Shown: piece after piece, positions 19,762 to 36,915 of the stretch
Position numbering within the stretch: position 1 is the first letter of the stretch
Layout of the letters: each line of letters starts with the position of its first letter
Source of the DNA: Phyllosticta citribraziliensis
Lineage: Eukaryota
Direction: 5' to 3'
Length of the DNA stretch: 64,000 nucleotides
NCBI RefSeq assembly: GCF_038025025.1
Contig: NW_027117347.1
Span: forward strand, 1,736,001-1,800,000
Position numbers and translations under genes: made by a program
Notes under the pieces: generated by a model
The model's database searches: none
The model's input: the letters and a program-made list of their open reading frames with translations, nothing else
Told to the model about the DNA's origin: nothing

Positions 19762-20385
19762 CCTTTCCTTTTCTCTGCTTTTTCCGCGGAACTAAAAGAA
19801 AGGGGGTGAGATTGAGGGCGTAGGAGGGAGGAGCGGAGAGCGCGGGACGGGGCTGTTGAAGGGCGGGGAAGAGCGTCTTCATCGCACAGGGCTGTCATCT
19901 TACGATGCTGCCTGCAGTTGCATGTCCTATCAGCGCTGCGTTGTGTGGTTGTCACTCGGAAGTATCTTGTTCACGATCTTGGCTTGCTGCGACATGCCGT
20001 CCCTACGCGTCGTGTGAGATGGGTGATAGGAGAGGGGACTGGCTGCAGCATAGAGAAATGAAGCATCGAGTAAGAAGAGGACGACTAAGAGAGGCTCAGC
20101 AACTACGCGTTGGATGTTTGCGGCAGGGTCAATATGGCTTGGTGTCGAAAACCCAGCTGTAGGCGCGGACGCTGAGGTCCGGCTCGGTAGGGGAGCCGAA
20201 GGCGCAAGGTACAGTACAAGTATAAGTAAGAGAGGACCAAGACTTCTTCAGCGTCGTGCCACCAACAAGTCCAACTACAGTATAAGCAGTCAGCTTGTGC
20301 AACGAGACATGTGATAGGTGATTCTGCACTCACCTTATCCCATCCCTTGTCCTACTATTGGCTATGCCACCGCATAAAGATTCAT

Positions 20386-21498
20386 TCAGTGTATATACTC
20401 CATCCCGCAGTCGCCCATCTGCTCAAACATGTCTTCGCGCCGACTCCTCTTCAGGACGTCCTCGATCTTTTGCAACTCGCCGTCGTCGAGGCTCCATCCA
20501 TATACCTTCAGATTCTCCTCCGTACGATCGCTGACGCCAAGACGCGTACCAACAATGACAGCGCCCACGTACGCGTGGTCCAAAACCCAACGCGTCGCCA
20601 CATTGGAGACGGACACGTCGCGCTTGTCTGCAATGGCGTTGAGGGCTGCGAGCAACTCTTGGAAAAGATCCCATCCTCCCCACGCCACAATCTCCTCGTA
20701 GTACTGTACTCCATCAGCAAGGCTCTCCTGAAAGAGTGCAAAGAGGAACATCACACACCTTGCGATGGCTAGGCGTCATGCCGTCGCTATAGAGCGCCGG
20801 CGCCGGCTGCCCGACCCATTTGTCGGCCAGGAAGCCGCCGCAGAGCGTCCCGTACGTTAGCAGTTTGACACCGTGCTTTGCGCACAGCGGGCCCATCTTG
20901 ACTGTCGGGCGTGAGTCGATGAGCGAGAATTGCACTTGGTTCGTAGCGAGGGCGATACCAGCAGCAAGTGCCTGCTCCATCTTTGCCGTGTCGAAGTTCA
21001 CAGCACCCAGAGACGCGGCGCGCGTGTCGTTGTGCAGGTACTGTAGCGCTTTGATGTGCTCTCCGTTTCCGTACTGTGCATGTAAAGTCAGTCGTTGACG
21101 GGCGGAAAGAAATGAGAGCAGATTACATGTTGGACGTAGAACTGGCACAGATCGATGCTTTGCGCCTTGATATTCTTGACACGCTGAGCCAGCGCCGCAT
21201 CCATCACGTCGTCCGTCGGATCAACCTTTTCAAAGAGGCAGATTTTGGTGGCGCAGTAAATCTTGTCGGGCTGCTCGTGCCGCGTCCGAAAGCGCCCAAA
21301 CAGCAGCTCAGCGTCGCCGTAGTGGTCAGCCATGTCGAACGCGGTGAAGCCGGCGTCGACGAGCGCTTGGAAGTGCCTTTTGATCTTGGACAGCGGCGCT
21401 GTGCCCCACTGCGGACTGGAGCATTGCCAGAGACCGACGAAGAGGCGCGGGACGCTGCGGGAGCCGATTTGGAAGGTTTCAATGTCGGTGGTGGGCAT
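20386..21498 (-). CDS. Aldo-keto reductase family protein
   Basis: PRLFVGLWQ, FDMADHYGDAE, ATK, NQVQFSLID, LLTYGTLCGGFL, VATRWVL, VIVGTR. Introns 21126-21074 and 20758-20704. Confidence 0.9.
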
Positions 21499-21769
21499 GG
21501 TGGTGTGTTTGAAGGGCAGACTCCGATGCTGGAGTTGAGAATGTCATGATTGTCAGTTGGTGGTGGTGGTGATAGGGAGAGCGGAGGTGCTGCCGTCCTG
21601 TGTGGGGCTCTGCTACCCGCAGTTCCTTGGATGGAGACCAGTCATGCAAGCTCCCCACTTCTGGCGCGATGTATGTTTTGCAGTAGTGCGGCTATACATA
21701 TGTCAACCTCCATCTCATGTGGAGGAATGGTTGTAGCGACGCCAACAAGAATCCCAACAGCCAGCCATC

Positions 21770-22378
21770 ATGACCACCGACGCGCCGCCAGCCGCGGCCA
21801 AAACATCTCACGTTAATATGATGGTCGACACGGTGGTCGCAAACCTCCCGGCTGAGGGCCTGCGTTCCATCATCCGCAGCCAACTCGCAACCACCCCGGC
21901 ATTCACGTCGTTCTTCATCGACAGCGCGCAGCGCTACCTCTGCGACACCAACAAGGCCGTCGGCAAAGTCTTTGAGTACAAGCACGACAGCGCCGGAACA
22001 CCGCGTCCTGTCGCGACAGCCGAGTACGGGAACGTCTTGCGCCGAATTCGTGCCATGGTTGGGAGTGGCCTCGTTTCCAATGCGCTTCCGCGCATCAACG
22101 AGATTCTAGAAAAGACGTTGGCGCTGGAGGGCTGGGATCATGGGTCGGAGTGGGAAGAAGAGCTGATTGACAGCTTGTCAGAGCTGGAGGGCGACGTTGT
22201 GCAGAGTGTTACAGCGATCCAGAAGGTTTTGGTCGCGCGCGGGTTGACCGAGGCTGAGAGGGAGCTGGTTTTGGGTTTGGCCGAGGCTTTGAAGAAGTGC
22301 AAGACGCTGGCAGACGAAAAGGAAGCCGAGGATCTGTTTGAGAGGGGCCTTGAGAGTGTTGAGAGTCTTTTGAGCTGA
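21770..22378 (+). CDS. Hypothetical alpha-helical protein, divergent from the AKR
   Basis: Intronless 202-aa ORF with good Kozak context (ATCATGA) and typical codon bias. No motif recognised. Confidence 0.7.
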   Translation: MTTDAPPAAAKTSHVNMMVDTVVANLPAEGLRSIIRSQLATTPAFTSFFIDSAQRYLCDTNKAVGKVFEYKHDSAGTPRPVATAEYGNVLRRIRAMVGSGLVSNALPRINEILEKTLALEGWDHGSEWEEELIDSLSELEGDVVQSVTAIQKVLVARGLTEAERELVLGLAEALKKCKTLADEKEAEDLFERGLESVESLLS

Positions 22379-23177
22379 GCGATCAGTGCTGGAGCGCGGA
22401 ACGAGGTTCTTTAGAGAGCAGCACATGTTTCTGGACCCTGCAGTCTTGCAGCTTGTTGGTCAACGAGCTCTCGAGAGTTCCTGAGCTGTTTAGTAAATGC
22501 CGACAGCCGCAACACCGAGATCCGGTCACTACGTTTGAAGTTGGCTTTTGGGCGGAATCATCAAGGATGATCCATACCACGCTGCACGTCACAGCAGCCT
22601 TGTCTCAAAGTTTCGTCCCTCGTCTCGCGTCAACCGTCTTCAACCTCTGTCCCACGACGCCTTGACCCTCGTTCGTGCTCCATCTGTTGTTCCATCGTTT
22701 GAGCCGGCCGAGTTACGGACGAGTTGCGAATCTGGGGTAGCCTGCGATAAGAGGCGCGTATCTGGAGAGCTGGCGTTTCTTGCCAGACTGGAGGCCGCAC
22801 CGTCGCCCTTCCATTCGATTTCGACTCGTCATGATTGGCGAGAGTCCAGAGTCAGCGCGGGCCTCGTGGCATCGTGTGCAGCTCGACGATTCGGATGTGC
22901 GATCGAGGATCTGCGAGGCCGACGCTTTGGCATGCGTGCAGCATCGTCTTGGTGAGCCTGCGGCGCTCTATCGACCTGTCGCATGGCTGCCATGGCATTC
23001 GATTTGGCACACGGTTGACACTGATTTGACGAGCGGATAATGACAAGCGGAGGGTCCAGAGGTTGAGGTGGAAGATGAGGTCTGCTGAGGTGGTGGACGA
23101 GAGGCGTTCCACAAGTCCGGGTCGATTATTCATCGTCTATCTGCAACCACACACAACCCACGTCGCGTCGCGTCTCT

Positions 23178-25007
23178 CTACCTTCCATCCCACTTATCAA
23201 GTCCGAGACCGCCAACCTCCCACGCCGCCGCCGCCTTGAGGATGCTCTCCTCGTCGAATCTCCTGCCAATAATCTGCATGGCCACCGGCATCTTCGCATC
23301 CCCGTCCTCGGCCTTGCCCCAGCCTGCCGGCATGCTCAGCGCCGGGTGACCCGTCACGTTGAACTGGCACGTATTCAGCGTCGATCCGATTGCCGGCTTC
23401 ATCTTGTCCTCGACCGACCCGTCCAGCGACGGGTGCTGGCTGTGCATGCGCGTAATCACGGGCGTAATCAACACGTCCACCTCTTCCAACGCCCGGTCGT
23501 ACGCCGCACGCAGCTCGTGCACGTGCATCATGGCCTTGCTCGCCAGCGACGCCCCGTCTGGCCGCTCTTGCAAGAGCGTTGCATTGAAGACCATGTTGGC
23601 CGAAGCTGGATTGTGCCGGTCCAACATGTCAAAGGTCGACTGCGAAAAGGCCGGAGGCGTCACGTCCGGGCAGGGATAAGACAGCAGCGGAGGTGGCATG
23701 TTGCGCATTCCCAGAGTCGCGATGCCGGCGCGTGTCGCAATAGTCCAAATGGACGGGCCCAAAAGGTGTTCCGGGATCGAGATGTGGCTAACCGACGCGC
23801 CAGTCGACTCGAATTGCGCAATGGCTGCTTGGACGACGCTGAAGATTTCTGGGCTCAGGCTTGGAACTGCGAGCGATTCGGTGATAACTCCAATGCGGAG
23901 ACCTCGGCCAGCCGTCTCTGCGGTCCATTCTCCAGCAGACTCTTTGGTAGCCCTGAACGACGCCAGTTGTGCTGAATAGTCTGGCACCTTGTGCCTGAGC
24001 GGTGTCTCGGGCGTACAGCGCGGATCAATCCCGTCGTATCCTGCAACAACGCCCAACAGCGTTGCAAGGTCCTCCAGACTACTCGCCATCGGGCCCGTGT
24101 GGTCAATCATTGGGAAAAGCGAGAGGATTCCAGAGTACGGCACCAGCCCATGGGTGGGTTTCAGGCCGTAGATGCCAGTGTACGCTGATGGCAAACGAAT
24201 GCTGCCACCTTGGTCGCCCCCTATCGCCATGTCCACGCCTTCTCCGAGCTCTTCATCGATGGATGGCAGTCCATGCCGTTTGCGCCACTCCTTGACTTGG
24301 TTGATGGCCACTAGAGCAGCGCAGCCACTGGAGCTGCCACCCGTGGTGTAGCCATAGGCCCAGGGGTTCTGAATTGGGCCTGTGTAGGACGTGAAGGAGA
24401 GGGGCGACATGGAGAGATGCTCACAGTTGGCGCTACCGCTGACTGTTCCCGCAGATTCAAGGACGCGCTTGACGACTATGGCATCAATCTTTGGGACAGG
24501 GTACTCCGACTTGCCCGTCAAGATTTCGGGAGTTGTTCCGCCAGTCAGCGGCACACCACCGATGGATACATTGTCTTTGAATGCGACAGTGCGGTTGGCC
24601 AGCCGCTTGTCTTTGGGCGAAGGAGACTTGATCTCAGACTGAAATCTACGTCAGTCTTTTGATTTCGACACTTGTCAAAGAAGCTACCTACCCGATGACT
24701 CCAGCCATTGAGAGGGTTGGGCTTTTGCTTGTACCACTGTCTGGGCAGCGTCTCCGCTTCAGGCTTGAGTCTTGGATCTTCATATTCTGGGAGATCCGCA
24801 ACTTGCTGCGCCGTGGCGTCCAGTCCATTCAAGAGGTGCCGGTAGTAGTCTTCCTCTTCGGCAGGAATCTTGACATTATGCTTCGCCGCAACTGCGCGCA
24901 GCCTCTCAATGTCCACTGCATTGCTTCGTCAGCCGGCTCATCACAGAATCCATTCAGCATTCTGACATACCAGTGGCAGGAGCGTTGCTAAGAAACACGA
25001 CCGACAT
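23178..25007 (-). CDS. Amidase (amidase-signature family)
   Basis: Lys-cisSer-Ser triad motifs AFKDN, GGSSSG and GGDQGGSIRLP; GLKPTHGLVP; TGHPALSMP. First exon MSVVFLSNAPAT, intron 24970-24916, second intron at about 24691-24639. Confidence 0.92.
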
Positions 25008-25227
25008 TTTCCCAATCACTTCGGAAGTTTCAGATAGTCCTTGGAAAGTCGCAATCCGCAAGCTGTGTATTTGTTCTCGCCTTTGGGCGTGCTATCTCGA
25101 CCCAATCTCGGCTTCCAATCCCACGGCCCACGACCGTTCGAGGCGCGCGTCTTCAGATATGCGCGAGGAGTGGGGGCTGACCAGAGGATCAACAATATGG
25201 GGAATCCGTGCGGTACCGGTAGTCCAG

Positions 25228-25873
25228 CTTATCTGCAGACTCGACTGGCCGACCTATCGATACGGGGTTCGATGGGTTTGTAATTCGGGCCCCCTGAAAC
25301 CAATCTTTTGCGGGTAGGCACTCGAGCAACGATTTGCCAAAGAAACTGTCGACTTTGGTAAATGAAGAACTAGACGAACAGCGGCCCTCGAGAGTGAAGT
25401 CTACATTTCCCTTCAAGGTTTTGCTCTGGTTATTTCCGGCTAAATTCCGTATTCGAAAGTCGTTACCGCTAGGACCCTGACGGGATGTGGAGAGCCTCAA
25501 GCTGGGGCTGGTGGCCTTAGGCTTGCGTTGCACTTAGTCAGCAAACACCCAGAGTCCTCCTATTCACGCCTCCAAACGCTCTGCATGTCAAAGGCCACAA
25601 GCGGAAAATGTTAAACGACTCAGACTGGCCCGAAACTAGGCCGGCGGCCTGCTGTGGTGTCGTTGCTCGGCACCGAGTACCGATGTGTCGGCATCCACCA
25701 AGTGACCACCAACTGGCCATTGAGGACGAGGTCGCACCCACGTCTATCAGCTTATCGCTCCACACCCCCGTTTGGTCACAGCCGGGCCAAGATAGGCGTG
25801 GATTCCATTGGATGCTTTTCCACAATGTGCAATGGGAGACACCGAATTGCCATGGCCCAAGACCGTATCTATC
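25228..25873. promoter_or_regulatory. GATA elements in the amidase/hydantoinase divergent promoter
   Basis: CTTATC at 25228 and 25751, CTATC at 25254, 25744 and 25869, AGATAG at 25790. These match AreA/NIT2-type GATAR sites. Confidence 0.45.
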
Positions 25874-26008
25874 GGCTCGCTGCGTCCGTCGACGAGGCGC
25901 CGCTGACTGCGAGGCTGCGCGAGGCTTGCTATTTAAGACACAAGTCCGGCGTTTGGTCTGTTGTGCTACTCGTGATACCCTTTTCGAATTTCCACAGCCT
26001 TCTCCATC

Positions 26009-29000
26009 ATGTCGTCGAGTTCAAGAGGTTACCGTCTTGGTGTAGACGTCGGCGTAAGTGCGCATTTGGAGTAGTAAAACTTTCGAAATTCTCACGCGCT
26101 TTTGCAGGGAACGTTTACAGATGTCTGCGTCATTACGCCCGAGGGAAAGACGGTCCGCGCAAAAGTCCCGACCAACATCGTCGACCAGAGCGTGGCAGTG
26201 AAAGAGGGTGTCGACCAAGTACGAAGTCTATTAAAAGAGCAGTATGGCTGGGACGGCAAGTTTGAATACATCCACCACGGTACAACCACCGCCACAAACG
26301 CAATCTTGGAAGGCAAAGGCGCAAAGACGGGCCTCATTGTCACTTCTGGCCACAAAGACATTCTCAGCTTCCGAAGATCTCAAATCCCTGGCGGCCTTGG
26401 AGCGTGGATCAACTGGCAGCAGCCCGCTCCGGTGGTACCGTTGGAGAGAACGGTCGAGGCACCTGAGAGAATTTCGATCCAAGGCGAGGTCGTGAGACCA
26501 CTCGACGAAGTAGCGTTCCGCAAGAGCTTGCAAGATTTGAAGAGGCAGAAGCCAGAGGCCATTTCCGTCAGTTTGCTCAACTCGTTTGCAAACAACGCCC
26601 ACGAGGAGGAGATTAGGAAAGTTCTCGAGGATGAGTTTGGACCTGAAGTCGAAGTCGTCACTTCAACAGAGATCCTGCCCGAGATTCAAGAGGTGAGTTT
26701 TGTGATCCGCCAAAGATGGACATACAACTGACGAAGCTAGTACGAACGTACTGTCACCACCACCGCAAATGCTGTCGTCAAACCCGTGGTGAAGAACTAC
26801 CTCAACAACCTGAAGAATCTACTGAGCCCGGACACGGACACATTACGAATCCTCAAGTCGGATGGCGACCTGACCTCCGTTGACCTCGCCGGCCAGCAAC
26901 CCGTCAACATCTTGATGAGTGGTCCCGCGGGAGGTGTCATCGGTGTTGGACATGTGATAGCTAAAAACACTCCCTTCAAGAACCTCATCACCCTCGACAT
27001 GGGTGGAACGTCAACAGATTGCGCCTTGATTCCCGGCACCAACGCCGTTCTGCGCCGCGAGACTGTCGTCGGCCATCTGACTGTCAAGGCGCCGTCCGTG
27101 GACGTGCGAACCGTCGGTGCTGGCGGTGGATCTATTGCCAACTACAACAAGCTGACCTCGACACTTCGCGTTGGCCCTGAATCCTCCGGAGCACGGCCTG
27201 GCCCTGCGGCGTACGGAAAAGGCGGTACCCTCGCCACGGTGACTGACGCAAATTTGGTCCTGGGATATCTCCCGTCCAAGCTTTTGGGAGGAGCCTTCCA
27301 GCTCGATGTCCAGGCTGCTGCCACGGCTGTCGAGTCGATAGCATCGCAGATGGGTCTGGGTGTATCCCAGGCGGCCGAGGGCATCATCAACTTGGTCAAC
27401 GAGACCATGTACGGTGCGCTGCGTCTGGTGTCTGTCGAGCAGGGCTACGATCCGCGCGAGTTTGCTCTGGTTGCTTTTGGAGGCGCAGGTCCTCTGCACG
27501 CAAATGCCGTCGGCAAGCTGCTTGGGGCCTTCCCCGTCATTGTCCCTCCCGCCCCTGGTATTCTGTGCGCTCAGGGCGATGCCACAACAAAGATGTCGCA
27601 TGAGCAATCTTGCACGTACATCAAGGTGTTGGCCAACACTTCGGCAGAAGAGCTCAGGGCTGCGTTTGATGAACTCAAGGTGGGATGCACAGACACGATG
27701 AAGAAGTCGCTCGCCACCGAGGACCCGGCCCTGGACATTTCGTACCAGGTAGACATGAGATACAAGGGCCAGGCCCTGACGCTCACGGTCGACATGGTCG
27801 AGGCGGACATCATGAACGACACAGACACTCTCTTCGCTCTCCTCCGCCAAAAGTTTGCTGCCGTCCACGTGCAGCAGTTCAGCTTCTCCCTCCCCGACAC
27901 GATCGACCTCGAGATGATGCGCCTGCGCGTCAAAGCCACAGACGGCTCTCCTGAAGTCACGATTCAATCCATCGAAGCCGCGACCTCCTCCACGCCCCCC
28001 GACTCAGCCATCATCTCGCGCAGCCCCATCGTCGTCAACGGCGAAAAGGTCGAGGCAACCTTCTGGGACAGATCCGCCATCACCAAGAAGGGCTACCGCA
28101 TGTCTGGACCGTGTGTTATCACCGAGATGGACAGCAACACGCTGATCCTGCCCGGGTACACGGGTGAAATCGACGGCATGGGCAACATCCTCATTCGTCC
28201 CGACGACACTGTGCAGACGTGGGCGGAGGAGCTGGTCGACACGCCGGAATCGGCGCGTGAAGCCGTCGAGCGGAACCCCCTGATCCCTACCCTCATTGCC
28301 AGTTCGCTCGGCAGCATCAGACGCGAAATGGACACGCTGATGCTGCGGTGCGCAATGAGCCCGGCTATTCGTGACCAGCAGGACGAGTTCAACGTCATTA
28401 CGAATACAAAGGGCCAGATGCTTGTGGGGCAGTTTGGCAGCTTCATTGCCCAATTTTTGAAGAATTGGAAAGGTACGATTGAGGAAGGCGACGTCTTTGT
28501 CACCAACGACACGTATGAAACGGAGGGTGCCGTGTCGCATCTCAACGATGTGATTGTCATGCTGCCTATCTGGTATCATGGCAAGATTGTGGGATGGGCG
28601 GCCAACTTTGGCCATTTGACGTAGGTCTTCCATTCTTCTCTTCTGGTTTAAATGCTGACAAGTCTCAATAGGGACGTCCAAGGCAAGGTTCCCGGCTCCA
28701 TGAGCATCAACGCCTCCACCATTTTCGAGGACGGTCTTCAAATCCCGCCAGTCAAGCTGTACTCCAAGGGCCAGTTCAACGACAGCTTGCTTACCGTCTT
28801 CTGCCGCAACAGCCGCATCCCCGAGTGGTTCCAGAGCGACTTGACTGCGCTTGTAGCAGCATGCAGAACCGCGTCGACACGCGTCTGCGAGCTGTGTGAC
28901 CGCTTCGGCCTCGAAGTGTACCAGGCCGCCACCGACGACCTGCTCGCGCGCTGCCGCTCGGCAATCAGCCAGATCATCGAGACCAAGATCGGCGACGAGC

Positions 29001-30265
29001 GGTCCAGCTTCACCGACTTCATCGACGACAACGGCCACGAGGTGGGACCGTGGGCGATATCGTGCTCGATGCAAAAGGTGGGCAACCGGCTGGTGTTTGA
29101 CTGGGACGGCACCTCGCCGCAGTCGCCCACGTCCATCAATTACTACCTGTCGACGCCCATGTTCAAGATGTTCATCGGCTACTTCTTGCTCGCCATCTAC
29201 GACCCGCACTGCGTCGTCAACGACGGCTTCCACGACCTGGTCGACCTGCAGATTCCCTCGGGCACGATTCTGCGTCCCATGCGTCCCGGCTCTCTCTCTT
29301 GCCGCACCCACCTTCTCGGCCGCATCATGGACGTCATCCAGGCGCTTTTCGGCCAGCGCAACCCCGCATACCGCGCCGCCGCCGGCTTCTCCGACTCGCC
29401 GCATCTCTTCTACTCGGGCTGGAAGCCCAACGGCGAGTGGTTCCTGCTGTACCAGATCGGGTTCGGCGGCGTGCCGGCGCGGCCGCTGGGCGACGGGCCC
29501 GACTGCCACTGCCTGTTCCCGGCCATCAAGAGCATCCCGACCGAGAACATCGAGCTGTACTTCCCCATCATCGTCGAGGCCAACGAGGCCGTGGCCGACA
29601 GCGGCGGCGCCGGCTTCTACCGCGGCGGCAACGCCCAGCGCACCCTCTACCGCTTCCTGTGCGCCGGCGAGGTCAGCATCCACGACGACCGCTGGCTCAC
29701 CAAGCCGTGGGGCGTCAACGGCGGCGCGCCCGGCTCGCGCTCCCGCAAGGCCGTCTTCCGCAACAGCAGCTACGGCACGCCCGCCGCGCCGCAGCACTAC
29801 GAGATCCTGCCCAGCAAGATGGACCACCTGGCCGTGCAGCCGGGCGACGTGCTGGAGTGGATAACGTGGGGCGGCGGCGGGCTGGGCGACCCGCTCACGC
29901 GGCCGGCCGAAACCGTCGCCCTCGAGGTGCACCGCCGGCTCGTCACCTTGGACGGCGCCAAGCGCAAGTACGGCGTCGTGGTCAACGCGGGCGACTTCTC
30001 GGTCGACGAAGCCGCCACCGAGGCGCTGCGCGCCACCATGCGCGCGGCCCGGCCCGCCGGCTGGAGCGACGTCTGCTACGACCGCGGCGGGTCGCTCGAG
30101 GAGATTCTGGCCACGGCCGAGGAGGAGACGGGGCTGAAGGCGCCGCGGCCGCAGTGGGAGCGCGATCCGTATGGCCCGCACATGAACGAGGTGTATGTGA
30201 AGGAGTGGTTCAAGACGATGCGGGAGCGGGGCGGCTGGACGTTGGATGACGTGGGGAAGATGTAG
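26009..30265 (+). CDS. Fused ATP-dependent hydantoinase/oxoprolinase A+B (putative lactamase)
   Basis: RLGVDVGGTFTD, HGTTTATNA, SGPAGG, DMGGTSTD, GAGGGSIA, TDANLVLG, FGGAGPLHA, SHLND, GHLTDV, DSGGAGFYRGG, GGGGLGDP. Introns 26054-26107, about 26693-26740 and about 28621-28670. Confidence 0.93.
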
Positions 30266-30340
30266 AAAGGGAAAGAAAGCTTTATAATTCGATTCGCCTT
30301 GCATATTACTCTTATTCGCGCCTCTAAAGCCACCTATGTA

Positions 30341-31738
30341 TCAGTTTAGATGGATCAGCTTACCATCGGCATCTAGATATCCCTTGGCGACCACATCGAC
30401 TGCTCGTCTCAATCTCCTGACAGACTCCCGAACTTCTTCCTCCGTGATGATGAAGGGCGGCGACACCACCACCGAGTCCATCTTCCAGGTCCCGGGGAAC
30501 CCCATGTTCTTGAGCACAAGCACGCCCTGCTTCTCCACCGCCTCGTCCACGACCCGATGCGAGAAGTCGTCGCCCATCGGGAACGGTGTCCGCGTCGCCG
30601 GGTCGCGCATGAACTCGACAGCCCACAGCAGCCCGCGCCCGCGGATGTCGCCCGTGAGTGGATGTTGGCCGAGCTCTTCGCGCAACAGCCGCCCCAGCAG
30701 CTCGCCCTGCTTTCTCACGTTCGACAGGAGGTCGCGCTCTTTGATGATCCGCTGCACTGCGAGCGCGGCCGCACACGACGTCGGGTGTGCCTGGAACGTG
30801 TGGCCGCCCGCCAGCGCGCCTTGCGGCGTTGCAATGGCGTCGAAAATGCGCTGGTGGACGAGGACGCCAGAGACCGGGATGAAGCCACCGCCGAGCGATT
30901 TTCCAATCATCTGCAGGTCCGGCCCGCGAATGCCTTCTTGCTGCCAGGCGTGCAGAGTGCCCGTCCGCCCCATTCCGCATAGCACTTCGTCGAGGACCAG
31001 CAGCGCCCCGTACTTGTCGCATATTTCCCGTACGGCCTTGAAGTAGCCCTTGACGGCAGGAACGGAGGCGAGCGTCGAGCCCGCAACCGTCTCGGCGACA
31101 AAAGCAGCGACGGTGTGCGGGCCCAGCCGCTGGAACTCGGCCTCAATCTGTTCGACCAAGCGCGCGAGATACGCTTCATCCGACTCGCCGTCCCGCTTGC
31201 CGCGATAGGCACAGCAGGCGTCGACGAACGAAACATTCTCCGACATCCAGTGCCGGTACAAGTCGCGGCGGCCCGCGTGTCCGGTGATGCACAGCGCGCC
31301 GAGCGTGTTGCCGTGGTAGCTCTGCCTCCGCGCGACGAAGTTGACGCGCCGCGTCTCTCCCTTCGCCGCCCAAAACTGCGTCACCAGCTTCAGCACCGCC
31401 TCGGTTGCTTCGCTGCCCGAGCCCAGGAAGATGGCCTTGCTCAGCCCGCCCGGCCGGCCTTCCAGGATGTGCGCCGCCAGTTCTTCCGTCGTGTCTTCGC
31501 AGAACCCGCCGCCGGAGAATAGGTAGCCGATTTTGGTGAGTTGTTTGCTGACAGCTTCGGCTACCTCGGGCACGTTGTGCCCGATGCAAGCTACGCCTGG
31601 CCCTCCCGTGGCGTCGATGATGGTTCGGCCGTCGTCGAGGGTCAATGTCGTTCCCGAAGCGGAGACTATGCGCAGAGGCTTTTGAGAGAAGGAGCGGTGG
31701 AAGATGCTGGAGCGTTGGAAAAACTCGTTGAGCGCCAT
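30341..31738 (-). CDS. PLP-dependent class III (omega-amino acid type) aminotransferase
   Basis: Intronless. SGSEATE, SYHGNT, AAFVAETVAG, LVLDEVLCGMGRTG, PLP lysine in QMIGKSLGGG, GHTFQAHP. Confidence 0.93.
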   Translation of the reverse strand: MALNEFFQRSSIFHRSFSQKPLRIVSASGTTLTLDDGRTIIDATGGPGVACIGHNVPEVAEAVSKQLTKIGYLFSGGGFCEDTTEELAAHILEGRPGGLSKAIFLGSGSEATEAVLKLVTQFWAAKGETRRVNFVARRQSYHGNTLGALCITGHAGRRDLYRHWMSENVSFVDACCAYRGKRDGESDEAYLARLVEQIEAEFQRLGPHTVAAFVAETVAGSTLASVPAVKGYFKAVREICDKYGALLVLDEVLCGMGRTGTLHAWQQEGIRGPDLQMIGKSLGGGFIPVSGVLVHQRIFDAIATPQGALAGGHTFQAHPTSCAAALAVQRIIKERDLLSNVRKQGELLGRLLREELGQHPLTGDIRGRGLLWAVEFMRDPATRTPFPMGDDFSHRVVDEAVEKQGVLVLKNMGFPGTWKMDSVVVSPPFIITEEEVRESVRRLRRAVDVVAKGYLDADGKLIHLN

Positions 31739-31987
31739 TGCAGAAGAAAAGGAGGTGAACGGACGCTATTCAGTCGAAGTTCAAGGAAGTCGGCGTGGAC
31801 ATGTGGCCGGGGTTGACGTATTTGAAGGAAGAACAATGCTCTTGATGCCGACCAGGTCTTTCTAAATAGAGCGACATCGGGAATTGACACGCCACGCCGT
31901 ACGGCTCCATCAAGAACGTGGTGTAGTCATGGACCCTTTCCAAACACTGAGCTTGTGCCACCCGACGATGTTGTGCCTTGCACCGCC

Positions 31988-32160
31988 AGCCAATCAAGAA
32001 AAGCGCGCCAGAACCGCCCAGCTAAGCTTTTCCCTAGCGTCCACTCCGCCAGATCTGGGCCAAGCTTTGAGTGTTTGGTACTAGGGAACCTAGTCATCGA
32101 CGACATGGTTTATCGTTCGAGATATGACCCCAGCCGCGTTGTCGACGCGTTAGCCAATCA
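31988..32160 (+). promoter_or_regulatory. Two AGCCAATCA (CCAAT-box) elements
   Basis: Identical 9-mers at 31988-31996 and 32152-32160 in the aminotransferase/permease divergent promoter. Confidence 0.45.
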
Positions 32161-32297
32161 CAAAATGCCCGCTTGAGCCGCCCGGCTAAGCGCGCTGCGC
32201 AAGACACCTCAACACGATGGGCGCGCGGTGGTTGTGGAAGTCAGTCAGTACCTGAAAACAAGGAGTTGGACCTCGGAGACCTGGCCGCCAAACGGAA

Positions 32298-32315
32298 GAT
32301 AAGGATAAGGATAAG
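32298..32315 (+). promoter_or_regulatory. Triple tandem GATAAG (nitrogen-regulated GATA factor sites)
   Basis: GATAAGGATAAGGATAAG about 170 nt upstream of the permease ATG. Confidence 0.6.
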
Positions 32316-32487
32316 AGTTGATCCACACGGTGTGGAGTAGTTCAACACTGCGATTACCTACCTACTCGACCGCCTTTATGAGGCGCCGGTTCCGCAACAA
32401 CCTTCGACGTGCAATGAACAACGTCCCTGCGTCTTGGCCCGCACGACAAACCAGGCCATTTTGAAAGACTGCTTTACGACCGTCGAC

Positions 32488-34368
32488 ATGCCGGATTCGC
32501 AGCGAACGCCGCATAGCGGCTCTCCTGATCAGAAAGGAGCCACGGGCAAGGCCGGTCCGAGAGTGGATTTCGAAGAAGGCGATGTTGGCGATGTGCAGAG
32601 CGGCCATGTGGACGCGTCCGACCACACGCACCGACGACTGAAGCCGCGGCATATCCAGCTGATTGGCATCGCGGGCACGATCGGCACTGCGTAAGACCCC
32701 TCGAATTCAAATCGATTTGACAGAAAAAATGCAGTTCGCTCTGACGCCCCTTGTGAACGCAGGCTATTCGTCAATATTGGAAAAGGCTTGCTGAGCGGTG
32801 GACCCGCGAGTTTGTTCATGGCGTACTGCTTGTGGTGAGTAAGAGAACTAAGGACTTGTCGGTGAACTCGCGCTGAGCTGACGGATGCAGGTGTCCCGTC
32901 ATTCTAGCCATTTCCCTCTGCATGTCGGAAATGGCGACGTATCTCCCCGTCTCGTCGCCCTTCATCCGCTTTGCAGGCCGGTTCGTCGACGAGGCATTCG
33001 GCGTCGCGGCGGGCTACAACTTCTTCCTCTTCCAAGCATCGCTGTGTGAGCAAAGACCCTCGACTATGCCATCCCATCTCATCCTGACCGACTGGCTGCG
33101 GCTAACACATCGCCACAGTACCATTCGAGATCACCGTCTGCAACGTGGTGATACGGTACTGGACCGAGGCCATCCCAGTGTGGGCCGTGTGCCTCGTGTT
33201 CCTCTCGCTGTACGCCATCCTCAACTTCGTCGCCGTCAAGTTCTTCGGCGAGGCCGAGTTCTGGCTGTCAATCGGCAAGGTCGTCCTGATCGTCGGCCTC
33301 ATCTCCTACACGTTTGTCGCCATGGTCGGCGGCAACCCGCGACGTGACGCGTTTGGCTTTCGCTACTGGGACGACCCTGGTGCTTTTAGAGAGCTCTACC
33401 GCGAGGGCGACCTCGGCCGCTTTCTGGGCTTTTTGTACTGCCTCATCCAAGCCGCTTTCGTCATTGCTGGTCCCGAGTATGTCTCGATGACGGCGGGCGA
33501 GGCCGAGAATCCGAGAAAGGTCCTCCCGAAGGCGTACAAGTCCATCGTCTGGAGGCTGACGACTTTCTTCGTTCTTGGCTCCCTGGCTGCTGGAATTGTC
33601 GTGCCGTCGAATGACCCGAAGCTGAAGGAGGCGTACTCGAGCAGCAAGGGAGGCGCCGCCGGATCGCCGTACGTGCGGTCGATGGACATCCTCGGCATCC
33701 CGGTCTTGCCTCACATTGTCAACGCGTTGATCTTGACATCGGCCTTCAGCGCCGGCAACAGCACGACGTACTGCGCAACACGCACCCTGTACGGCATGGC
33801 TCTCGAGGGCAAGGCGCCTCGCCTCCTGGCAAAATGCAACAACGCCGGCGTGCCGTACTACTCGGTTGCGATCGTCCTGTGCTTTGGCGGCCTCTCCTTC
33901 CTGCAGGTTTCCAACTCGACCGCCGTCGTGCTCAACTGGTTCGTGTCCCTGGTCACAGCCTCCCAGCTGATCAACTTCTGCGTCATCGCCTTCACCTTCA
34001 CACGCTTCATGAACGCATGCGGCGCCCAAGGAATCTCCAGAGACTCGCTGCCGTACAAAGCACCGTTCCAGCCATACACGACCTGGTTCGCGTTCTCAGC
34101 CTGTTTCGTCATGACTTTCATTGCCGGATACAGCATCTTCATCGACGACAACTTCACCGTCCCAGATTTTCTCTTTCAGTACATGATGGTCGGCGTGTTC
34201 CCGGTGGTGTTTGTTTTCTGGAAGGTGTTGAAGAAGACAAAGTGGCTGAAGCCTATTGAGGTCGACCTCACGACCGGCGTGTGGGAGATTGACGTTTACA
34301 CAGAGAACTTTGTGCCCACGCCATCAAAGACGGTGTTTACGCGGGCGCTGGATAAAATATTCAGTTGA
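32488..34368 (+). CDS. Amino-acid permease (APC superfamily, yeast amino-acid transporter type)
   Basis: HRRLKPRHIQLIGIAGTIGT, GPASL, FGEAEFWLSIGKV, GFRYW, TAGEAENPRKVLP, LPYKAPFQPY; multiple TM helices; three short 5' introns. Confidence 0.93.
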
Positions 34369-34483
34369 GTGTGTGAATAGAGAGTCAGTAACTGTACTTG
34401 AATGATGACACGCGAATTCGCCGCTGCTATTACAAGCAAGGGCTCGCTTTCGATCGCTGTCGGTGAGAGGGAGAGATGCGATG

Positions 34484-35981
34484 TCAAACAATGGAAAGCT
34501 TCCACTGCCTCATGTCCAAAACATCACGCCAATCGACTGTCTCATTCGACAAACGAAGCTGCCAAAGCTCCTCAAGCACTCTCAGCGCGCAGTCGTAGTT
34601 GTAAAGGTATCGGGATGCCACGATAGACTTCATCTTCGTTCGTATCGCCTGCATGTCGTCGGGGTGGGCAATCTCTCCACCACAGATGAAAAGGGGGAAG
34701 AGCAACGAGCTCTCGACGAGGCTTTGGTGCGGAATCTTGTGTAGTCTGGCAATGATGCCATGGGCCAGCGAGGGAGCGTTGGTTTGGAATGCGGCGCCGC
34801 CTGCCAAGTTGCGACGGACGACTCGATGGAGGTGGATGAGGGCGGCGTTGCGATACATCTCGGCAAGGTCGACGAGACCCTCGGACTGGTCGACGTTGTC
34901 GCATTCCCAATCCAGCAACTCCTCTTCTAGCTTCAAGGCCCTCGCTCGAGAGGCGCCCTCGAAGAAGTCGTCTCGAAGTCGTCGTGCCTCAATCATATCG
35001 GCATTGAGCACACTCGTCTCTGAGATCAAAAACAAGAGCCGAGATGCGACGCCAAACAAGCTGTCCGGCGGCTCCTTCTCGCCGAAGAACCAGTAATGCC
35101 CCGCCACGAGGAGCGGCCGCGTATCCGCGGCGACGGCGGCCATGATGTCGTGGTAAGCGAAACTGCGCAGAAGCCACTGGCCCTCGAACGAGGCAAACGG
35201 ACTGGTATCCCACGACGTCGCATCACCGCCCTTGTCGCAGACGGACCGCATCACTTGATTGGCGCCCGTGAGGTGGATGAACCATTGCCTCGTGTCGCCA
35301 GATATGCTCTCCAGCGCACACTGCACCAGACAACACGCCATCTCGATTTCCGGCTCGCGTTTGGCCGACGAGATCAACGTCGTGAGCGACCGCAACGCCC
35401 TTCCCCGGCATTGCAGAGCCAACCTCTCGTACGAGGCCTCGAGCTGGGCCAGGTGGGTCGACGACCAAGCTATGATGGTATCGAGGAGGGCGGGCGAATC
35501 CATGGCAAGCGGCAAGAAGACTGATATAAAGCAGTTGTTTTCGAGGTTTGTGGTGATCAATGCGGCGAGGGTTTGCGTGTAGTATCGCAGCACCACTCTT
35601 CGTTGCGCCGCAAAATCTTCAGGCAGTTGGATGCGTCCATGTTGGAGCCAAAAGGCTGAGACATCCGGAGTCAAGGTAGTCAAAGAAGCAGACGGGCCAG
35701 CCGGGTTTTGATGCTCGGCGGAGTGAGTTGTCCGAGAGAGAGATTGTCGTGGGCGACCGCGCTTTCGCGGCTGTGTGGGATCCTCTCGGCGGCAAATGAA
35801 ATTCAGACGACTGCATGCGCCGCATATGGGATAGGCTTGATCGCATTTCTTCTTGCTGTTCGTTCATGTTGGCCAAGTGGTCGATGCGAGGAGTATACAC
35901 TGAGACCCACCGGTCACGACACGTTAGACAGCCGTTGCGGAGGCGCTTTCGCAACAGGCTTGCTTCAACTTCGCTAGTCAT
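34484..35981 (-). CDS. Zn(II)2Cys6 transcription factor with fungal-specific C-terminal domain
   Basis: Spliced N-terminus [29 protein letters not shown] (intron at about 35910-35856) reads in frame into ORF 34484-35683 (FAYHDIMA, LLFPLFICG, VDWRDVL). Confidence 0.9.
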
Positions 35982-36915
35982 GGGGCCGGCCTGTTGCTAC
36001 AGAAAGCTGGAAATGGCGGGAGCGCCGACTGGCGATTGAGAAACGAGACTGGTCAGCCAAATCATCAGACATTGGGAAGTAAGGTTGGGTGCGCGCAAGC
36101 CTTATCATGGCATCTTCAACATGACCTGATGTTCGATTACGCCTGCCGTGGTCGGTCCCTCAACGGGTAGGGAAAAACCAAAGTCCGGCTCACCGCCTTC
36201 CTTTTTCAGCACCAAAAGCCCTTCCGCTGGCTGTCGAAATCAAGTGTGACCATTCTGATTGCATGTTGTATGTAGACGAGACCCTCCAATCTAGTCCGTC
36301 ACCCACAGGCGCAAAGATGCAACTCTAGCGAATAAACAACAAGAAAAGATCCGAGAACGCTTTTTTCTCCTCGGCTCCCAAAAATGGCGTGGATTACAAA
36401 GCGAGCAGGACATGTAAAAAAGGGGAGGACGGTGATGAAAGATTAGAGAAGTGGTGGTGGGAAAACAAGCCGTCCAGCAGCCCCCAAAGAAAGAGCCCAC
36501 GAGCCACTCGTCGCCTTCTGGTCTAGGTGTTTGATAATGGTCGTGAATAGCAGCAAAACAAAAACAAAAAGGCTACAAGGGTGTCATCAGCCGCTGGTGG
36601 TGGTGGTCGTACAAATCACATGAGAGAGGAAGAAAAGGCCCAAGGGTGGAAGAGGGCGGACAGCGAAGGTCGGAAGTGACGTTGGACGAGGAAAGAAGAA
36701 AGGTTAAACGGCAGGCGACATGGACTGCCAGTCAGTCTTGAACCCACCAAACAAAGTGTTTGTGAAGCCGCTTGCGCCATGGAGAAAAGAAGAAAACTGG
36801 AAAGAGAAAGAAGGCCAAGGGGGACTGGTACGACAAGGGCTCTGCGCCGGACCCAATAGGTACATCGAACTGATCGAGCAGGAAGAGATGACGTCGGTGA
36901 GACCAGGATGGATCT

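What the first reader, a model, noticed from the sequence alone, without database searches (positions are those of the whole stretch)
20386..35981. Seven-gene candidate lactam / cyclic-amide utilisation cluster with its own regulator
Seen: AKR, unknown protein, amidase, fused hydantoinase/oxoprolinase, class III aminotransferase, amino-acid permease and Zn2Cys6 factor lie contiguously as three divergent pairs plus the regulator, flanked by unrelated genes. Known: ATP-dependent hydantoinase-family lactamases plus an omega-aminotransferase degrade capro-/valerolactam in Pseudomonas (CapAB, OplBA). In Aspergillus nidulans the largely dispersed AmdR regulon covers the same functions (amidase amdS, permease gabA, transaminase gatA, lactam genes lamA/B, which use a different lactamase family). 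Inference: import, ring opening, amide hydrolysis, transamination to an aldehyde and AKR handling of that aldehyde, all in one locus. I know of no characterised fungal cluster with this composition.
Basis: partly seen in the sequence, partly recalled or inferred. Interest (0 to 1): 0.9.

Follow-up and report, generated by a model that had tools for sequence, protein, structure and literature searches.

The report
Two gene modules joined, not one cluster
The seven genes are real and adjacent, but they look like an old ring-opening enzyme plus amidase pair that later gained a mobile three-gene amino-acid uptake unit, shared with an unrelated plant fungus, rather than one seven-gene pathway.

Summary
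All seven genes exist at the stated coordinates, with the stated families and orientations. The window comes from a Phyllosticta species.

Comparison with other fungi splits the locus into three parts.

- **Hydantoinase plus amidase.** The fused HyuA/HyuB ATP-dependent hydantoinase follows fungal phylogeny. Its divergent pairing with an amidase recurs in 3 of about 10 other fungal contexts. None of the other five genes appears in any of those contexts.
- **Transaminase, permease, regulator (30264-36250).** This is a separate unit. Its closest relatives are in the Colletotrichum gloeosporioides complex, a different fungal class: 90% identity for the omega-transaminase and 83% for the Uga3-like Zn2Cys6 regulator. 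Other Botryosphaeriales reach only 55-56% and 39%. The transaminase-X-regulator order is kept in Colletotrichum and Trichoderma. A duplicated 40-nt promoter element occurs only between transaminase and permease.
- **AKR plus unknown protein.** I found no link to either module.

My verdict is a juxtaposition created by horizontal transfer. A lactam to omega-amino-acid link between the two modules is possible but unsupported.

The parts
20386..21498 (-). Aldo-keto reductase gene, 334 aa after splicing. Probably a bystander.
   Evidence: Pfam PF00248 on two exons. Introns 20704-20758 and 21074-21126 are skipped in RNA contigs of runs X2 and X3. The spliced ORF is intact. No homologue lies near any related locus. 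Nearest solved structures are weak matches.
21770..22378 (+). Conserved fungal hypothetical protein, 202 aa, helical. Probably a bystander.
   Evidence: No Pfam or NCBIfam family. The Atlas nearest cluster is 'hypothetical protein', 319 members, Eukaryota. It is covered by RNA contigs. The single-sequence fold was unusable, pLDDT 42.
23178..24928 (-). Amidase-signature amidase. The first short exon with the ATG was not resolved. It forms a divergent pair with the hydantoinase.
   Evidence: PF01425 at 7e-66. Closest solved structure is an amidase, 3a1k, 213 bits. NF005565 scores 357 against a cut-off of 545 on the partial protein. GGSSSG and GGSIR motifs are visible in the translation. The same divergent pairing occurs in L015, L024 and L026.
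26009..30265 (+). Fused HyuA/HyuB ATP-dependent hydantoinase/oxoprolinase/lactamase-family enzyme, about 1360 aa. Inherited vertically.
   Evidence: PF05378, PF01968, PF19278 and PF02538. Start codon and first intron read directly from the sequence. Identities are 94-96% to Phyllosticta, 87% to Neofusicoccum and 83% to Saccharata. The tree follows taxonomy. Caprolactamase equivalog cut-offs are not reached.
30264..36250 (.). The 6-kb transaminase-permease-regulator block. Its boundaries are set by where contigs of a relatives' run diverge from the window.
   Evidence: In run X5, contigs fit up to 30263 or from 36251 and then run on unlike the window. One 6320-nt contig carries the whole block with both junctions.
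30341..31738 (-). Class III omega-aminotransferase, 465 aa, single exon.
   Evidence: PF00202. Best solved relatives are omega-transaminases, and plant pyruvate-dependent GABA transaminase POP2 is among the hits. 90% identical to the Colletotrichum gloeosporioides complex, 55-56% to other Botryosphaeriales. Sister to Colletotrichum with SH-aLRT 100. End-to-end tblastn match.
31988..32191 (+). Two copies, 164 nt apart, of a 40-nt element (CCAAT box plus CCGCCCRGCTAAGC) in the transaminase-permease bidirectional promoter. Candidate site for the regulator.
   Evidence: Repeat family D1. The composite pattern occurs 2 times in the window against 0 in 100 shuffles. The 14-mer has no match, even with 2 mismatches, in the other two divergent promoters.
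32488..34368 (+). YAT-family amino-acid permease. Start and two short introns are approximate.
   Evidence: PF00324. TIGR00913 is the best NCBIfam match. Exon blocks come from tblastn with relatives. The best representative, at 77% identity, is a chimeric gene model that also carries the transaminase N-terminus.
34484..35981 (-). Zn2Cys6 / Fungal_trans_2 regulator, 480 aa. Close Colletotrichum relatives are labelled UGA3 by their sources.
   Evidence: PF11951 plus PF00172. Complete Cys6 motif after splicing. Intron 35856-35910 is skipped in an RNA contig. 83% identity to Colletotrichum, 57% for the next hit, 39% to Botryosphaeria dothidea.

Best explanation
The locus is a composite of independently inherited units that became neighbours in one Phyllosticta lineage.

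**Unit B (23178-30265).** This is an old, vertically inherited divergent pair.
- It consists of a fused HyuA/HyuB ATP-dependent cyclic-amide hydrolase and an amidase-signature amidase.
- I infer that the first enzyme opens a cyclic amide, imide or ureide at the cost of ATP.
- The amidase would then hydrolyse the amide or carbamoyl group that remains, releasing ammonia.

**Unit A (30264-36250).** This is a mobile, self-regulated three-gene module.
- A Uga3-like Zn2Cys6 activator is inferred to bind the duplicated CCAAT/CCGCCCRGCTAAGC element in the bidirectional promoter.
- It would switch on a YAT-family permease and a pyruvate-type class III omega-transaminase.
- An omega-amino acid or amine would then be imported and its amino group passed to a keto acid. 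Unlinked dehydrogenases would handle the aldehyde.
- Unit A was exchanged by horizontal transfer with the Colletotrichum gloeosporioides complex. It sits directly behind the hydantoinase stop codon.

**The AKR and the 202-aa protein** are bystanders.

**Shown:** gene identities, transcription and splicing, the vertical history of the hydantoinase, the xenologous history and conserved order of unit A, and the recurrence of the amidase-hydantoinase pair.

**Inferred:** substrates, binding of the regulator to the repeat, and direction of transfer.
For: **The hydantoinase is vertical.**
- Hit identities fall with taxonomic distance: Phyllosticta 94-96%, Neofusicoccum 87%, Saccharata 83%, Diplodia 82%, Pleosporales about 70%.
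- No Colletotrichum, Trichoderma or Fusarium appears among the 120 listed hits, whose lowest identity is 62%.
- In the 40-row tree it is sister to P. capitalensis, inside a Botryosphaeriales group.

**The amidase pairing recurs.**
- The divergent amidase is present beside the hydantoinase relative in L015, L024 and L026, and in no other of the 40 loci.
- These loci fall in three separate clades of the hydantoinase tree.

**Unit A is foreign.**
- The transaminase is 90% identical to Colletotrichum but 55-56% to Neofusicoccum, Macrophomina and Diplodia.
- The regulator is 83% identical to Colletotrichum, 57% to the next hit and 39% to Botryosphaeria.
- In the transaminase tree, window plus Colletotrichum are sisters (SH-aLRT 100, path length 0.13). 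The four other Botryosphaeriales form a separate clade with support 100.

**The order of unit A is conserved.**
- Transaminase and regulator accessions differ by 2 in C. fructicola, C. siamense, C. asianum, C. aenigma, Trichoderma arundinaceum and T. barbatum.
- Capronia epimyces has adjacent locus tags A1O3_05245 and A1O3_05246.
- A Fusarium decemcellulare gene model fuses transaminase and regulator. A metagenome model fuses the transaminase N-terminus with the permease.

**Boundaries.**
- In run X5, contigs diverge from the window at 30263 and 36251.
- One contig carries the whole block with both junctions.

**Promoter element.** It is found only between transaminase and permease.

**Close bacterial relatives also sit beside a second hydrolase.** The closest bacterial relatives retrieved (Arthrobacter, Leifsonia; 45-49% identity) are also fused. 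In Leifsonia (L043), the one of these loci in which I saw it, an isochorismatase-family hydrolase follows the gene.
Against: **No fungal genomes could be searched.** I could not see what lies beside the triad in Colletotrichum. That the middle gene there is the permease orthologue is inferred, not shown.

**The position is suggestive.** Inserting an omega-transaminase module exactly beside an ATP-dependent lactamase-type enzyme mirrors the bacterial caprolactam cluster (PMC6061476 abstract). That could reflect selection for a joint pathway.

**The promoter evidence is weak.** It rests on one repeat and on the absence of shared words of 12 or more bases, not on binding data.

**The pairing is a minority pattern.** The amidase pairing is seen in only 3 of about 10 distinct contexts.

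**Absence of the block from P. capitalensis rests on hit lists only.** The transaminase list shows the best 120 of 7995 hits. The regulator list shows all 65.

**The depth drop in X5 is not a copy number.** The tool states this itself.
Confidence: 0.6

Rival explanations
1. **A five-gene functional supercluster.** The transferred transaminase-permease-regulator module was retained next to the amidase-hydantoinase pair because together they form a route. The steps would be lactam or cyclic amide, then omega-amino acid or amide, then aldehyde plus ammonia. This would be convergent with bacterial caprolactam and valerolactam clusters.
For: - The hydantoinase stop and the transaminase stop are only about 75 bp apart.
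- The same arrangement is annotated in P. citrichinensis: KAK8153194, -195 and -197.
- The arrangement is carried on an RNA contig of a related organism that runs from the hydantoinase 3' end (30022) across transaminase, permease and regulator to 35855.
- Both enzyme types match the bacterial precedent. NCBIfam's best match for the HyuA part is the caprolactamase alpha subunit.
- The transaminase matches pyruvate-type omega-transaminases.
- PMC6061476 (abstract) describes such a pair in one cluster.
Against: - The linkage is not seen in any of 40 loci with hydantoinase relatives, nor in Neofusicoccum.
- The triad exists on its own in several genera.
- The candidate regulatory element is absent from the amidase-hydantoinase promoter.
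- A plain lactam needs no amidase.
- No aldehyde dehydrogenase is present.
Confidence: 0.2
2. **The first reader's model.** This is one seven-gene lactam or cyclic-amide utilisation cluster under the Zn2Cys6 factor. The AKR would handle the aldehyde and the unknown protein would have a pathway role.
For: The seven genes are contiguous, lie in three divergent pairs, and have unrelated flanks. RNA contigs cover, at least in part, the AKR, the unknown protein, the amidase, the transaminase, the permease and the regulator.
Against: - The AKR and the unknown protein have no homologue in any of the 55 related loci, even at E 1e-3.
- The AKRs near the hydantoinase in L011 and L013 are a different kind.
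- The unknown protein belongs to a broadly distributed fungal family of hypothetical proteins.
- The parts have different evolutionary histories.
- No shared promoter words beyond chance.
Confidence: 0.08
3. **Pure neighbourhood.** The hydantoinase is simply the housekeeping 5-oxoprolinase of the gamma-glutamyl cycle. Neither pair nor triad has any pathway meaning beyond ordinary gene order.
For: Some sources name relatives '5-oxoprolinase'. The family is present across Pezizomycotina with a taxonomy-like tree.
Against: - The divergent amidase pairing recurs in three separate clades.
- The transaminase-X-regulator order recurs in at least three genera at 37-90% identity.
- Penicillium canescens carries two members of the family, so it is not a single-copy housekeeping gene everywhere.
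- Orthology to yeast OXP1 could not be tested.
Confidence: 0.1

Closest known systems
Pseudomonas jessenii caprolactam cluster (caprolactamase CapAB plus pyruvate-dependent omega-aminotransferase)
   Same: It combines an ATP-dependent HyuA/HyuB-family ring-opening enzyme with a class III omega-transaminase nearby. The closest solved relatives of the window's HyuB part and HyuA part include CapB and CapA, 6yra. PMC6061476, abstract read.
   Different: - The fungal enzyme is one fused chain.
- It scores 317.7 and 154.6 bits against equivalog cut-offs of 1000.
- Here the two genes have different evolutionary origins.
- The linkage is not conserved.
- An amidase is paired with the ring-opener.
- No aldehyde dehydrogenase is present.
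Aspergillus nidulans AmdR regulon (amdS, gatA, gabA, lamA, lamB) and yeast UGA regulon (Uga3 activator)
   Same: The logic is the same: a Zn2Cys6 activator controlling uptake and transamination of omega-amino acids, together with amide and lactam genes (PMC8016842, passages read). Sources label the Colletotrichum orthologues of the regulator UGA3.
   Different: - The AmdR genes are described as five structural genes, not as a cluster.
- Here the regulator, permease and transaminase are adjacent and move as a block.
- The transaminase is of the bacterial/plant pyruvate type by its solved relatives, not shown to be a GatA/Uga1 orthologue.
- Orthology of the regulator to AmdR or Uga3 was not tested.
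- That LamA/LamB belong to another enzyme family is recalled, not checked here.
Two-step cyclic-amide breakdown: ring opening followed by an amide hydrolase. Examples are the N-methylhydantoinase plus N-carbamoylsarcosine amidase route, and orphan bacterial HyuAB-amidase operons noted earlier in this scan.
   Same: - An ATP-dependent HyuA/HyuB enzyme sits next to a second hydrolase.
- The closest bacterial relatives of the fungal enzyme (Arthrobacter, Leifsonia) lie beside a family III CoA-transferase, an HMGL-like lyase and a GntR regulator; in Leifsonia an isochorismatase-family hydrolase follows the gene.
- The top solved match of the HyuA part is a fused 'N-methylhydantoinase', 7hk5.
   Different: - The fungal partner is an amidase-signature enzyme, not an isochorismatase-type one.
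- There are no CoA-transferase or lyase genes in the window.
- The substrate is unknown in both cases.
- The creatinine-pathway chemistry is recalled, not tested.
Horizontally transferred fungal metabolic gene clusters (general class)
   Same: A small, co-oriented block with its own regulator is shared at far higher identity than the species tree allows. Its distribution is patchy.
   Different: It is a nutrient-utilisation triad rather than a secondary-metabolite cluster. The direction of transfer is unresolved. The sister group of the Phyllosticta-Colletotrichum pair is Pseudocercospora, a Dothideomycete.

Membership tests
HyuA/HyuB ATP-dependent hydantoinase/oxoprolinase superfamily | Hydant_A_N, Hydantoinase_A, Hydant_A_C and Hydantoinase_B domains | tested here: met
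   All four Pfam domains are above their cut-offs across 26078-30265.
Caprolactamase CapA/CapB (NCBIfam equivalogs NF050156, NF050157) | Score at or above the curated cut-off of 1000 bits | tested here: not met
   97.1 and 317.7 bits on the two HyuA pieces, and 154.6 bits on the HyuB piece. The pieces are not the whole protein, but their sum is far below the cut-off.
Eukaryotic 5-oxoprolinase (OXP1/OPLAH orthologue) | Orthology to a characterised 5-oxoprolinase by reciprocal best hit or tree | not tested
   No reference OXP1/OPLAH sequence was obtainable through the tools. Some relatives are so named by automatic annotation.
Amidase signature family | PF01425 domain with a Gly/Ser-rich signature | tested here: met
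   223.5 bits. GGSSSG and GGSIR stretches are visible in the translation. Reading them as the catalytic Ser-cisSer-Lys region is recalled knowledge.
Class III pyruvate-type omega-aminotransferase | PF00202 domain and closest characterised relatives being omega-amino acid or amine:pyruvate transaminases | tested here: met
   251.9 bits. Top solved hits are omega-transaminases, and POP2 GABA transaminase scores 180.9 bits. NF005685 scores 480 against a cut-off of 485, just below.
Uga3/AmdR-type pathway-specific Zn2Cys6 activator | Zn2Cys6 cluster plus a fungal transcription-factor domain; orthology to Uga3 or AmdR; binding to target promoters | tested here: inconclusive
   Complete Cys6 motif and PF11951. 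The 'UGA3' label comes from sources' annotation of Colletotrichum relatives. Orthology and DNA binding were not tested.
Fungal catabolic gene cluster: all seven genes | Linkage conserved in other fungi | tested here: not met
   0 of 40 loci with hydantoinase relatives carry AKR, unknown protein, transaminase, permease or regulator. Neofusicoccum has the hydantoinase and transaminase on different contigs.
Fungal catabolic gene cluster: transaminase-permease-regulator triad | Linkage conserved in other fungi | tested here: met
   Accessions are two apart in 4 Colletotrichum and 2 Trichoderma species. Adjacent tags in Capronia. Fused gene models. The identity of the middle gene outside Phyllosticta is inferred.
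Fungal catabolic gene cluster: amidase-hydantoinase pair | Linkage conserved in other fungi | tested here: met
   The same divergent arrangement occurs in L015, L024 and L026, out of about 10 distinct contexts with enough upstream flank. These fall in three clades of the tree.
Any of the above clusters | Co-regulation by one inducer or regulator | not testable with these tools
   Only contigs of RNA runs were available, and these cannot rank expression. Promoter comparison found no shared element.
Horizontal gene transfer | Strongly supported conflict with the species tree, plus patchy distribution and shared gene order | tested here: met
   SH-aLRT 100 for window plus Colletotrichum, with other Botryosphaeriales in a separate clade. 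Supporting results. Direction is unresolved.

The most novel reading that the evidence does not exclude
A horizontally acquired, self-regulated omega-amino-acid module landed directly behind an ATP-dependent cyclic-amide hydrolase plus amidase pair. It was kept there because together they give a plant-associated fungus a complete lactam or cyclic-amide utilisation route. This would be a fungal supercluster assembled by transfer and convergent with bacterial caprolactam and valerolactam clusters.
Probability: 0.17. Interest if true: 0.65.

Novelty: new member of a known kind. Interest (0 to 1): 0.4.

Why it matters
The result shows how an apparently coherent seven-gene cluster can be an accident of assembly.

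One part is an old enzyme pair. Its substrate is unknown in fungi, and in its closest bacterial relatives too.

The other part is a compact regulator-permease-transaminase unit that has moved between two fungal classes. Both lineages include pathogens and endophytes of the same kinds of host plants.

The triad is a small, tractable example of a nutrient-uptake module travelling together with its own regulator.

The amidase-hydantoinase pair gives a defined target for finding the natural substrate of a large, uncharacterised fungal branch of the ATP-dependent lactamase family.

Tried and rejected
**Genome and scan notes**
- Whole-genome search: no genome is held for this window.
- Earlier scan notes: nothing for this place or for the transaminase.

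**RNA and read evidence**
- No RNA holder is listed on record.
- Laid runs were contigs only, so I draw nothing from the thin or missing cover of the hydantoinase and regulator in run X2.
- I draw no copy number from the lower summed depth over 30106-36275 in run X5.

**Promoter comparisons**
- CGG/CCG pair scans of the four promoters gave no shared spacing.
- Shared-word scans gave no word of 12 or more bases. The single 11-mer shared by the AKR-unknown protein and amidase-hydantoinase promoters is near chance.

**Composition**
- GC3 does not set the block apart from its neighbours.

**Unknown protein**
- The single-sequence AlphaFold model had pLDDT 42 and was not searched further.
- The Atlas gave only 'hypothetical protein' and a weak Cut8 lead that Pfam does not support.

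**Permease**
- The 50%-identity representatives did not include a named Colletotrichum orthologue from the block.
- The one Colletotrichum hit (AGP2, 48%) is at another locus.

**Neofusicoccum extension**
- The N. parvum hydantoinase gene model has a 540-aa extension that a precomputed list calls PF04082.
- My own scan did not reproduce this at E 1e-5, and the extension has no match in the window.

**Block ends**
- I searched for repeats flanking the block ends and saw no target-site duplication or terminal repeats.

**Literature**
- The AmdR binding-site paper (PMC364115) is not held. A recalled resemblance of the 40-nt element to AmdR/CCAAT sites is therefore left unverified.
- Searches for a described fungal cluster of this composition found none.
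- A search for Phyllosticta-Colletotrichum transfer found none (passages of PMC9073689 read).
- Supplements were not examined.

Full report
**1. Observation**

I translated stop-to-stop ORFs between 20.3 and 36 kb and scanned them against Pfam (22 pieces). The scan found:
- aldo-keto reductase on the minus strand (20386-21220);
- an ORF without a family (21737-22378, +);
- amidase (23178-24650, -);
- Hydant_A_N, Hydantoinase_A, Hydant_A_C and Hydantoinase_B in consecutive plus-strand pieces (26078-30265);
- class III aminotransferase (30341-31765, -);
- AA_permease (32877-34368, +);
- Fungal_trans_2 with a partial Zn_clus (34484-35863, -).

The gene models hold up under further checks:
- The hydantoinase starts at ATG 26009. 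A 15-codon first exon is followed by a GTAAGT...CAG intron that restores the GTFTD motif.
- With exon 1 added, the regulator has a complete Cys6 motif and is 480 aa.
- Contigs of two public runs skip introns with GT..AG ends on the gene strand. These are 20704-20758 and 21074-21126 in the AKR, and 35856-35910 in the regulator. Those runs therefore contain RNA, and the gene models are spliced as inferred.
- The spliced AKR is an intact 334-aa protein.

The flanks are unrelated: SIR2, an aspartic protease and a secreted-protein-like gene on the left (for the last), and a PXA/PX sorting nexin on the right.

**2. Source organism**

The best hits of the hydantoinase are Phyllosticta citrichinensis (96%) and P. 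capitalensis (94%). Neofusicoccum (87%), Saccharata (83%), Diplodia (82%) and Lasiodiplodia (80%) follow. The window is from a Phyllosticta species (Botryosphaeriales, Dothideomycetes). No whole genome is held for it.

**3. Enzyme types**

- **Hydantoinase, HyuA part.** It is closest to a fused 'N-methylhydantoinase' (7hk5, 262 bits) and to caprolactamase CapA (6yra, 237 bits).
- **Hydantoinase, HyuB part.** It is closest to CapB (164 bits).
- **NCBIfam.** The best models are the caprolactamase subunits, but they score far below the equivalog cut-offs.
- **Amidase.** It is closest to amidase 3a1k (213 bits) and to NCBIfam subfamily NF005565.
- **Transaminase.** It matches omega-amino acid or amine:pyruvate transaminases. 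The hits include the plant pyruvate-dependent GABA transaminase POP2. NF005685 scores 480 against a cut-off of 485.
- **Permease.** It belongs to the yeast-type amino-acid transporter family (TIGR00913).
- **AKR.** It has only weak solved relatives.

**4. Is the linkage conserved?**

I aligned the HyuB piece with 23 of the 120 listed relatives. I used that alignment to fetch 40 metagenomic loci, each with up to 10 kb on either side. I then ran tblastn with 17 window protein pieces against them.

That search found:
- the hydantoinase in all 40 loci;
- the amidase, in the same divergent position, only in L015, L024 and L026;
- none of the AKR, unknown protein, transaminase, permease, regulator or flank genes anywhere.

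The full spliced AKR and the unknown protein find nothing in any of the 55 loci, even at E 1e-3.

Pfam scans of 96 flank ORFs from 10 of the long loci show varied neighbours:
- amidase in L015 and L024;
- a DJ-1/PfpI protein and an unrelated AKR in L011 and L013;
- an ornithine-cyclodeaminase-like gene in L005 and L007, with a P5C reductase in L007;
- an Aa_trans transporter in L002.

Merging loci that are plainly the same organism gives about 10 distinct contexts with enough upstream flank. Three of these have the amidase.

In the hydantoinase tree, I used 40 rows: the window, 24 loci and 15 named proteins. I left out near-duplicate loci and loci below about 35% identity. The result is as follows:
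- The family follows fungal taxonomy.
- The window is sister to P. capitalensis, within a group that includes Neofusicoccum and Saccharata.
- The three amidase-linked loci and the window fall in three separate clades.
- The pairing is therefore old and patchily kept.

**5. The other half has a different history**

- **Transaminase.** The best hit is the Colletotrichum gloeosporioides complex, at 90% identity over 97% of the query. Pleurostoma reaches 75% and Pseudocercospora 73-74%. Neofusicoccum, Macrophomina and Diplodia reach only 55-56% (best 120 of 7995 shown).
- **Regulator.** The best hit is also Colletotrichum, at 83%. Pleurostoma follows at 57%, and Botryosphaeria dothidea reaches 39% (all 65 hits shown).
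- **Transaminase tree.** It has 40 rows: the window plus 39 of the 120 hits. I chose these to span taxa and left out 81 mostly redundant or unnamed rows. Window and Colletotrichum are sisters (SH-aLRT 100, path length 0.13). They sit in a patchy clade with Pseudocercospora, Pleurostoma, Capronia, Coleophoma and Cirrosporium. The four other Botryosphaeriales form their own clade (support 100).
- **Hydantoinase by contrast.** No Colletotrichum appears among its 120 best hits, the weakest of which is 62% identical. It was therefore not transferred with the block.

The direction of transfer is not resolved.

**6. The triad is a unit**

Accession numbers of transaminase and regulator differ by exactly two in six species:

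| Species | Transaminase | Regulator |
|---|---|---|
| C. fructicola | KAF4485030 | KAF4485032 |
| C. siamense | KAF4809919 | KAF4809917 |
| C. asianum | KAF0319739 | KAF0319737 |
| C. aenigma | KAF5521069 | KAF5521071 |
| Trichoderma arundinaceum | RFU78365 | RFU78363 |
| T. barbatum | KAL7941487 | KAL7941485 |

One C. siamense assembly shows a gap of eight.

Other evidence of linkage:
- P. citrichinensis has hydantoinase, transaminase and regulator at KAK8153194, -195 and -197.
- Capronia epimyces has adjacent tags, A1O3_05245 and A1O3_05246.
- Gene-model fusions show adjacency of transaminase and regulator in Fusarium decemcellulare. They also show adjacency of transaminase and an MFS transporter in Pseudocercospora musae.
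- A further fused model shows the transaminase N-terminus with the closest permease relative (77%) in a metagenome fungus.

Two results go the other way:
- In Pleurostoma the two accessions are about 100 apart on one contig.
- In Neofusicoccum the hydantoinase and the nearest transaminase are on different contigs.

That the middle gene in Colletotrichum and Trichoderma is the permease is inferred. The named Colletotrichum permease I could reach (48%) lies elsewhere.

**7. Boundaries of the block**

In run X5, which holds diverged relatives:
- One 6320-nt contig spans 30209-36481, so it carries the block with both junctions.
- Other contigs fit the window only up to 30263, the first base of the hydantoinase stop codon. 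Others fit only from 36251. In both cases they then run on for a median of 255 unlike letters.

An RNA contig of a related organism (X3) runs from 30022 to 35855 across transaminase, permease and regulator.

P. capitalensis is represented for the hydantoinase by a cluster of 12 sequences. It does not appear in the transaminase or regulator lists. This fits absence of the block there but does not prove it.

**8. Regulation**

The transaminase-permease intergenic region holds two copies, 164 nt apart, of a 40-nt element. The element combines a CCAAT box with CCGCCCRGCTAAGC.
- The composite pattern occurs twice in the window and never in 100 shuffles.
- The 14-mer has no match within two mismatches in the AKR-unknown protein promoter or the amidase-hydantoinase promoter.
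- No other shared promoter words exceed chance.

This is weak evidence that the regulator serves only its own triad.

**9. Bacterial relatives**

The closest bacterial relatives of the hydantoinase are fused enzymes of Arthrobacter and Leifsonia, at 45-49% identity.
- They sit next to a family III CoA-transferase, an HMGL-like lyase and a GntR regulator. In Leifsonia (L043) an isochorismatase-family hydrolase follows the gene.
- They have no amidase-signature enzyme, transaminase or permease.
- This composition resembles the orphan 'cyclic-amide' operons noted earlier in this scan. I treat those notes as leads only.

The recurring theme is a ring-opener plus a second hydrolase. That fits a substrate that still carries an amide or carbamoyl group after ring opening, such as a cyclic imide or ureide, better than a plain lactam. 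This is an inference.

**10. Reading**

The best-supported account is a composite:
- a vertically inherited amidase-hydantoinase pair of unknown substrate;
- a mobile, self-regulated omega-amino-compound module placed beside it by horizontal transfer;
- two bystander genes.

It therefore remains possible for the five-gene core. Nothing found here supports it beyond adjacency in this lineage.

On the published background:
- The AmdR regulon comparison is apt as logic (PMC8016842, passages read), but orthology was not tested.
- I found no published fungal cluster of this composition.
- I found no report of this Phyllosticta-Colletotrichum transfer.
- These searches cover open-access text only, and supplements were not read.

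**11. Verdict**

The novelty is modest: a new member of the known class of small fungal catabolic clusters, with a clear case of inter-class transfer. The natural substrate of a large fungal HyuA/HyuB branch remains an open question.

Noticed in passing
window 26078-30262: Third-codon-position GC rises steadily along the hydantoinase gene. It goes from 0.60 at the 5' end to 0.94-1.00 in the last 1.3 kb, just before the block junction. Identity to relatives shows no matching break.
   Followed up: partly
proteins P0006 and P0003: The hydantoinase of Phaeoacremonium minimum, a Sordariomycete, is 79% identical to the window's. It nests with Neofusicoccum inside the Botryosphaeriales group of the tree. 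This is a possible second, separate transfer.
   Followed up: partly
window 22480-22531: A minus-strand intron (CT..AC on the plus strand) is skipped in an RNA contig in the gap between the stop of the 202-aa gene and the stop of the amidase. It could be a 3'-UTR intron of the amidase or a non-coding transcript antisense to the neighbour's 3' end.
   Followed up: no
window 31828-32439: An RNA contig covers about 600 nt of the transaminase-permease intergenic region, including both copies of the 40-nt element. This could be a long permease 5' UTR or a separate transcript.
   Followed up: no
window about 19269-19950 (-): A gene that starts with a signal-peptide-like sequence lies just downstream of the AKR. 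It is joined to the AKR in one RNA contig. An intron at 20275-20333 lies between the two coding regions. Its ORFs have no Pfam family.
   Followed up: partly
window 34348-34397: A minus-strand intron is skipped in a relative's RNA contig between the permease stop and the regulator stop. It is probably in the regulator's 3' UTR.
   Followed up: no
L005 12173-13699; L007 12311-13741 and 990-1865: In Penicillium-like contigs, the hydantoinase relative is followed by an ornithine-cyclodeaminase/mu-crystallin-like gene. In L007 a P5C reductase lies nearby. This hints at a cyclic amino-acid context in Eurotiales.
   Followed up: no
window 50260-52729 (-): An indigoidine-synthase-A-like domain is followed by a PfkB kinase domain in one reading direction. 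It is unrelated to the finding.
   Followed up: no
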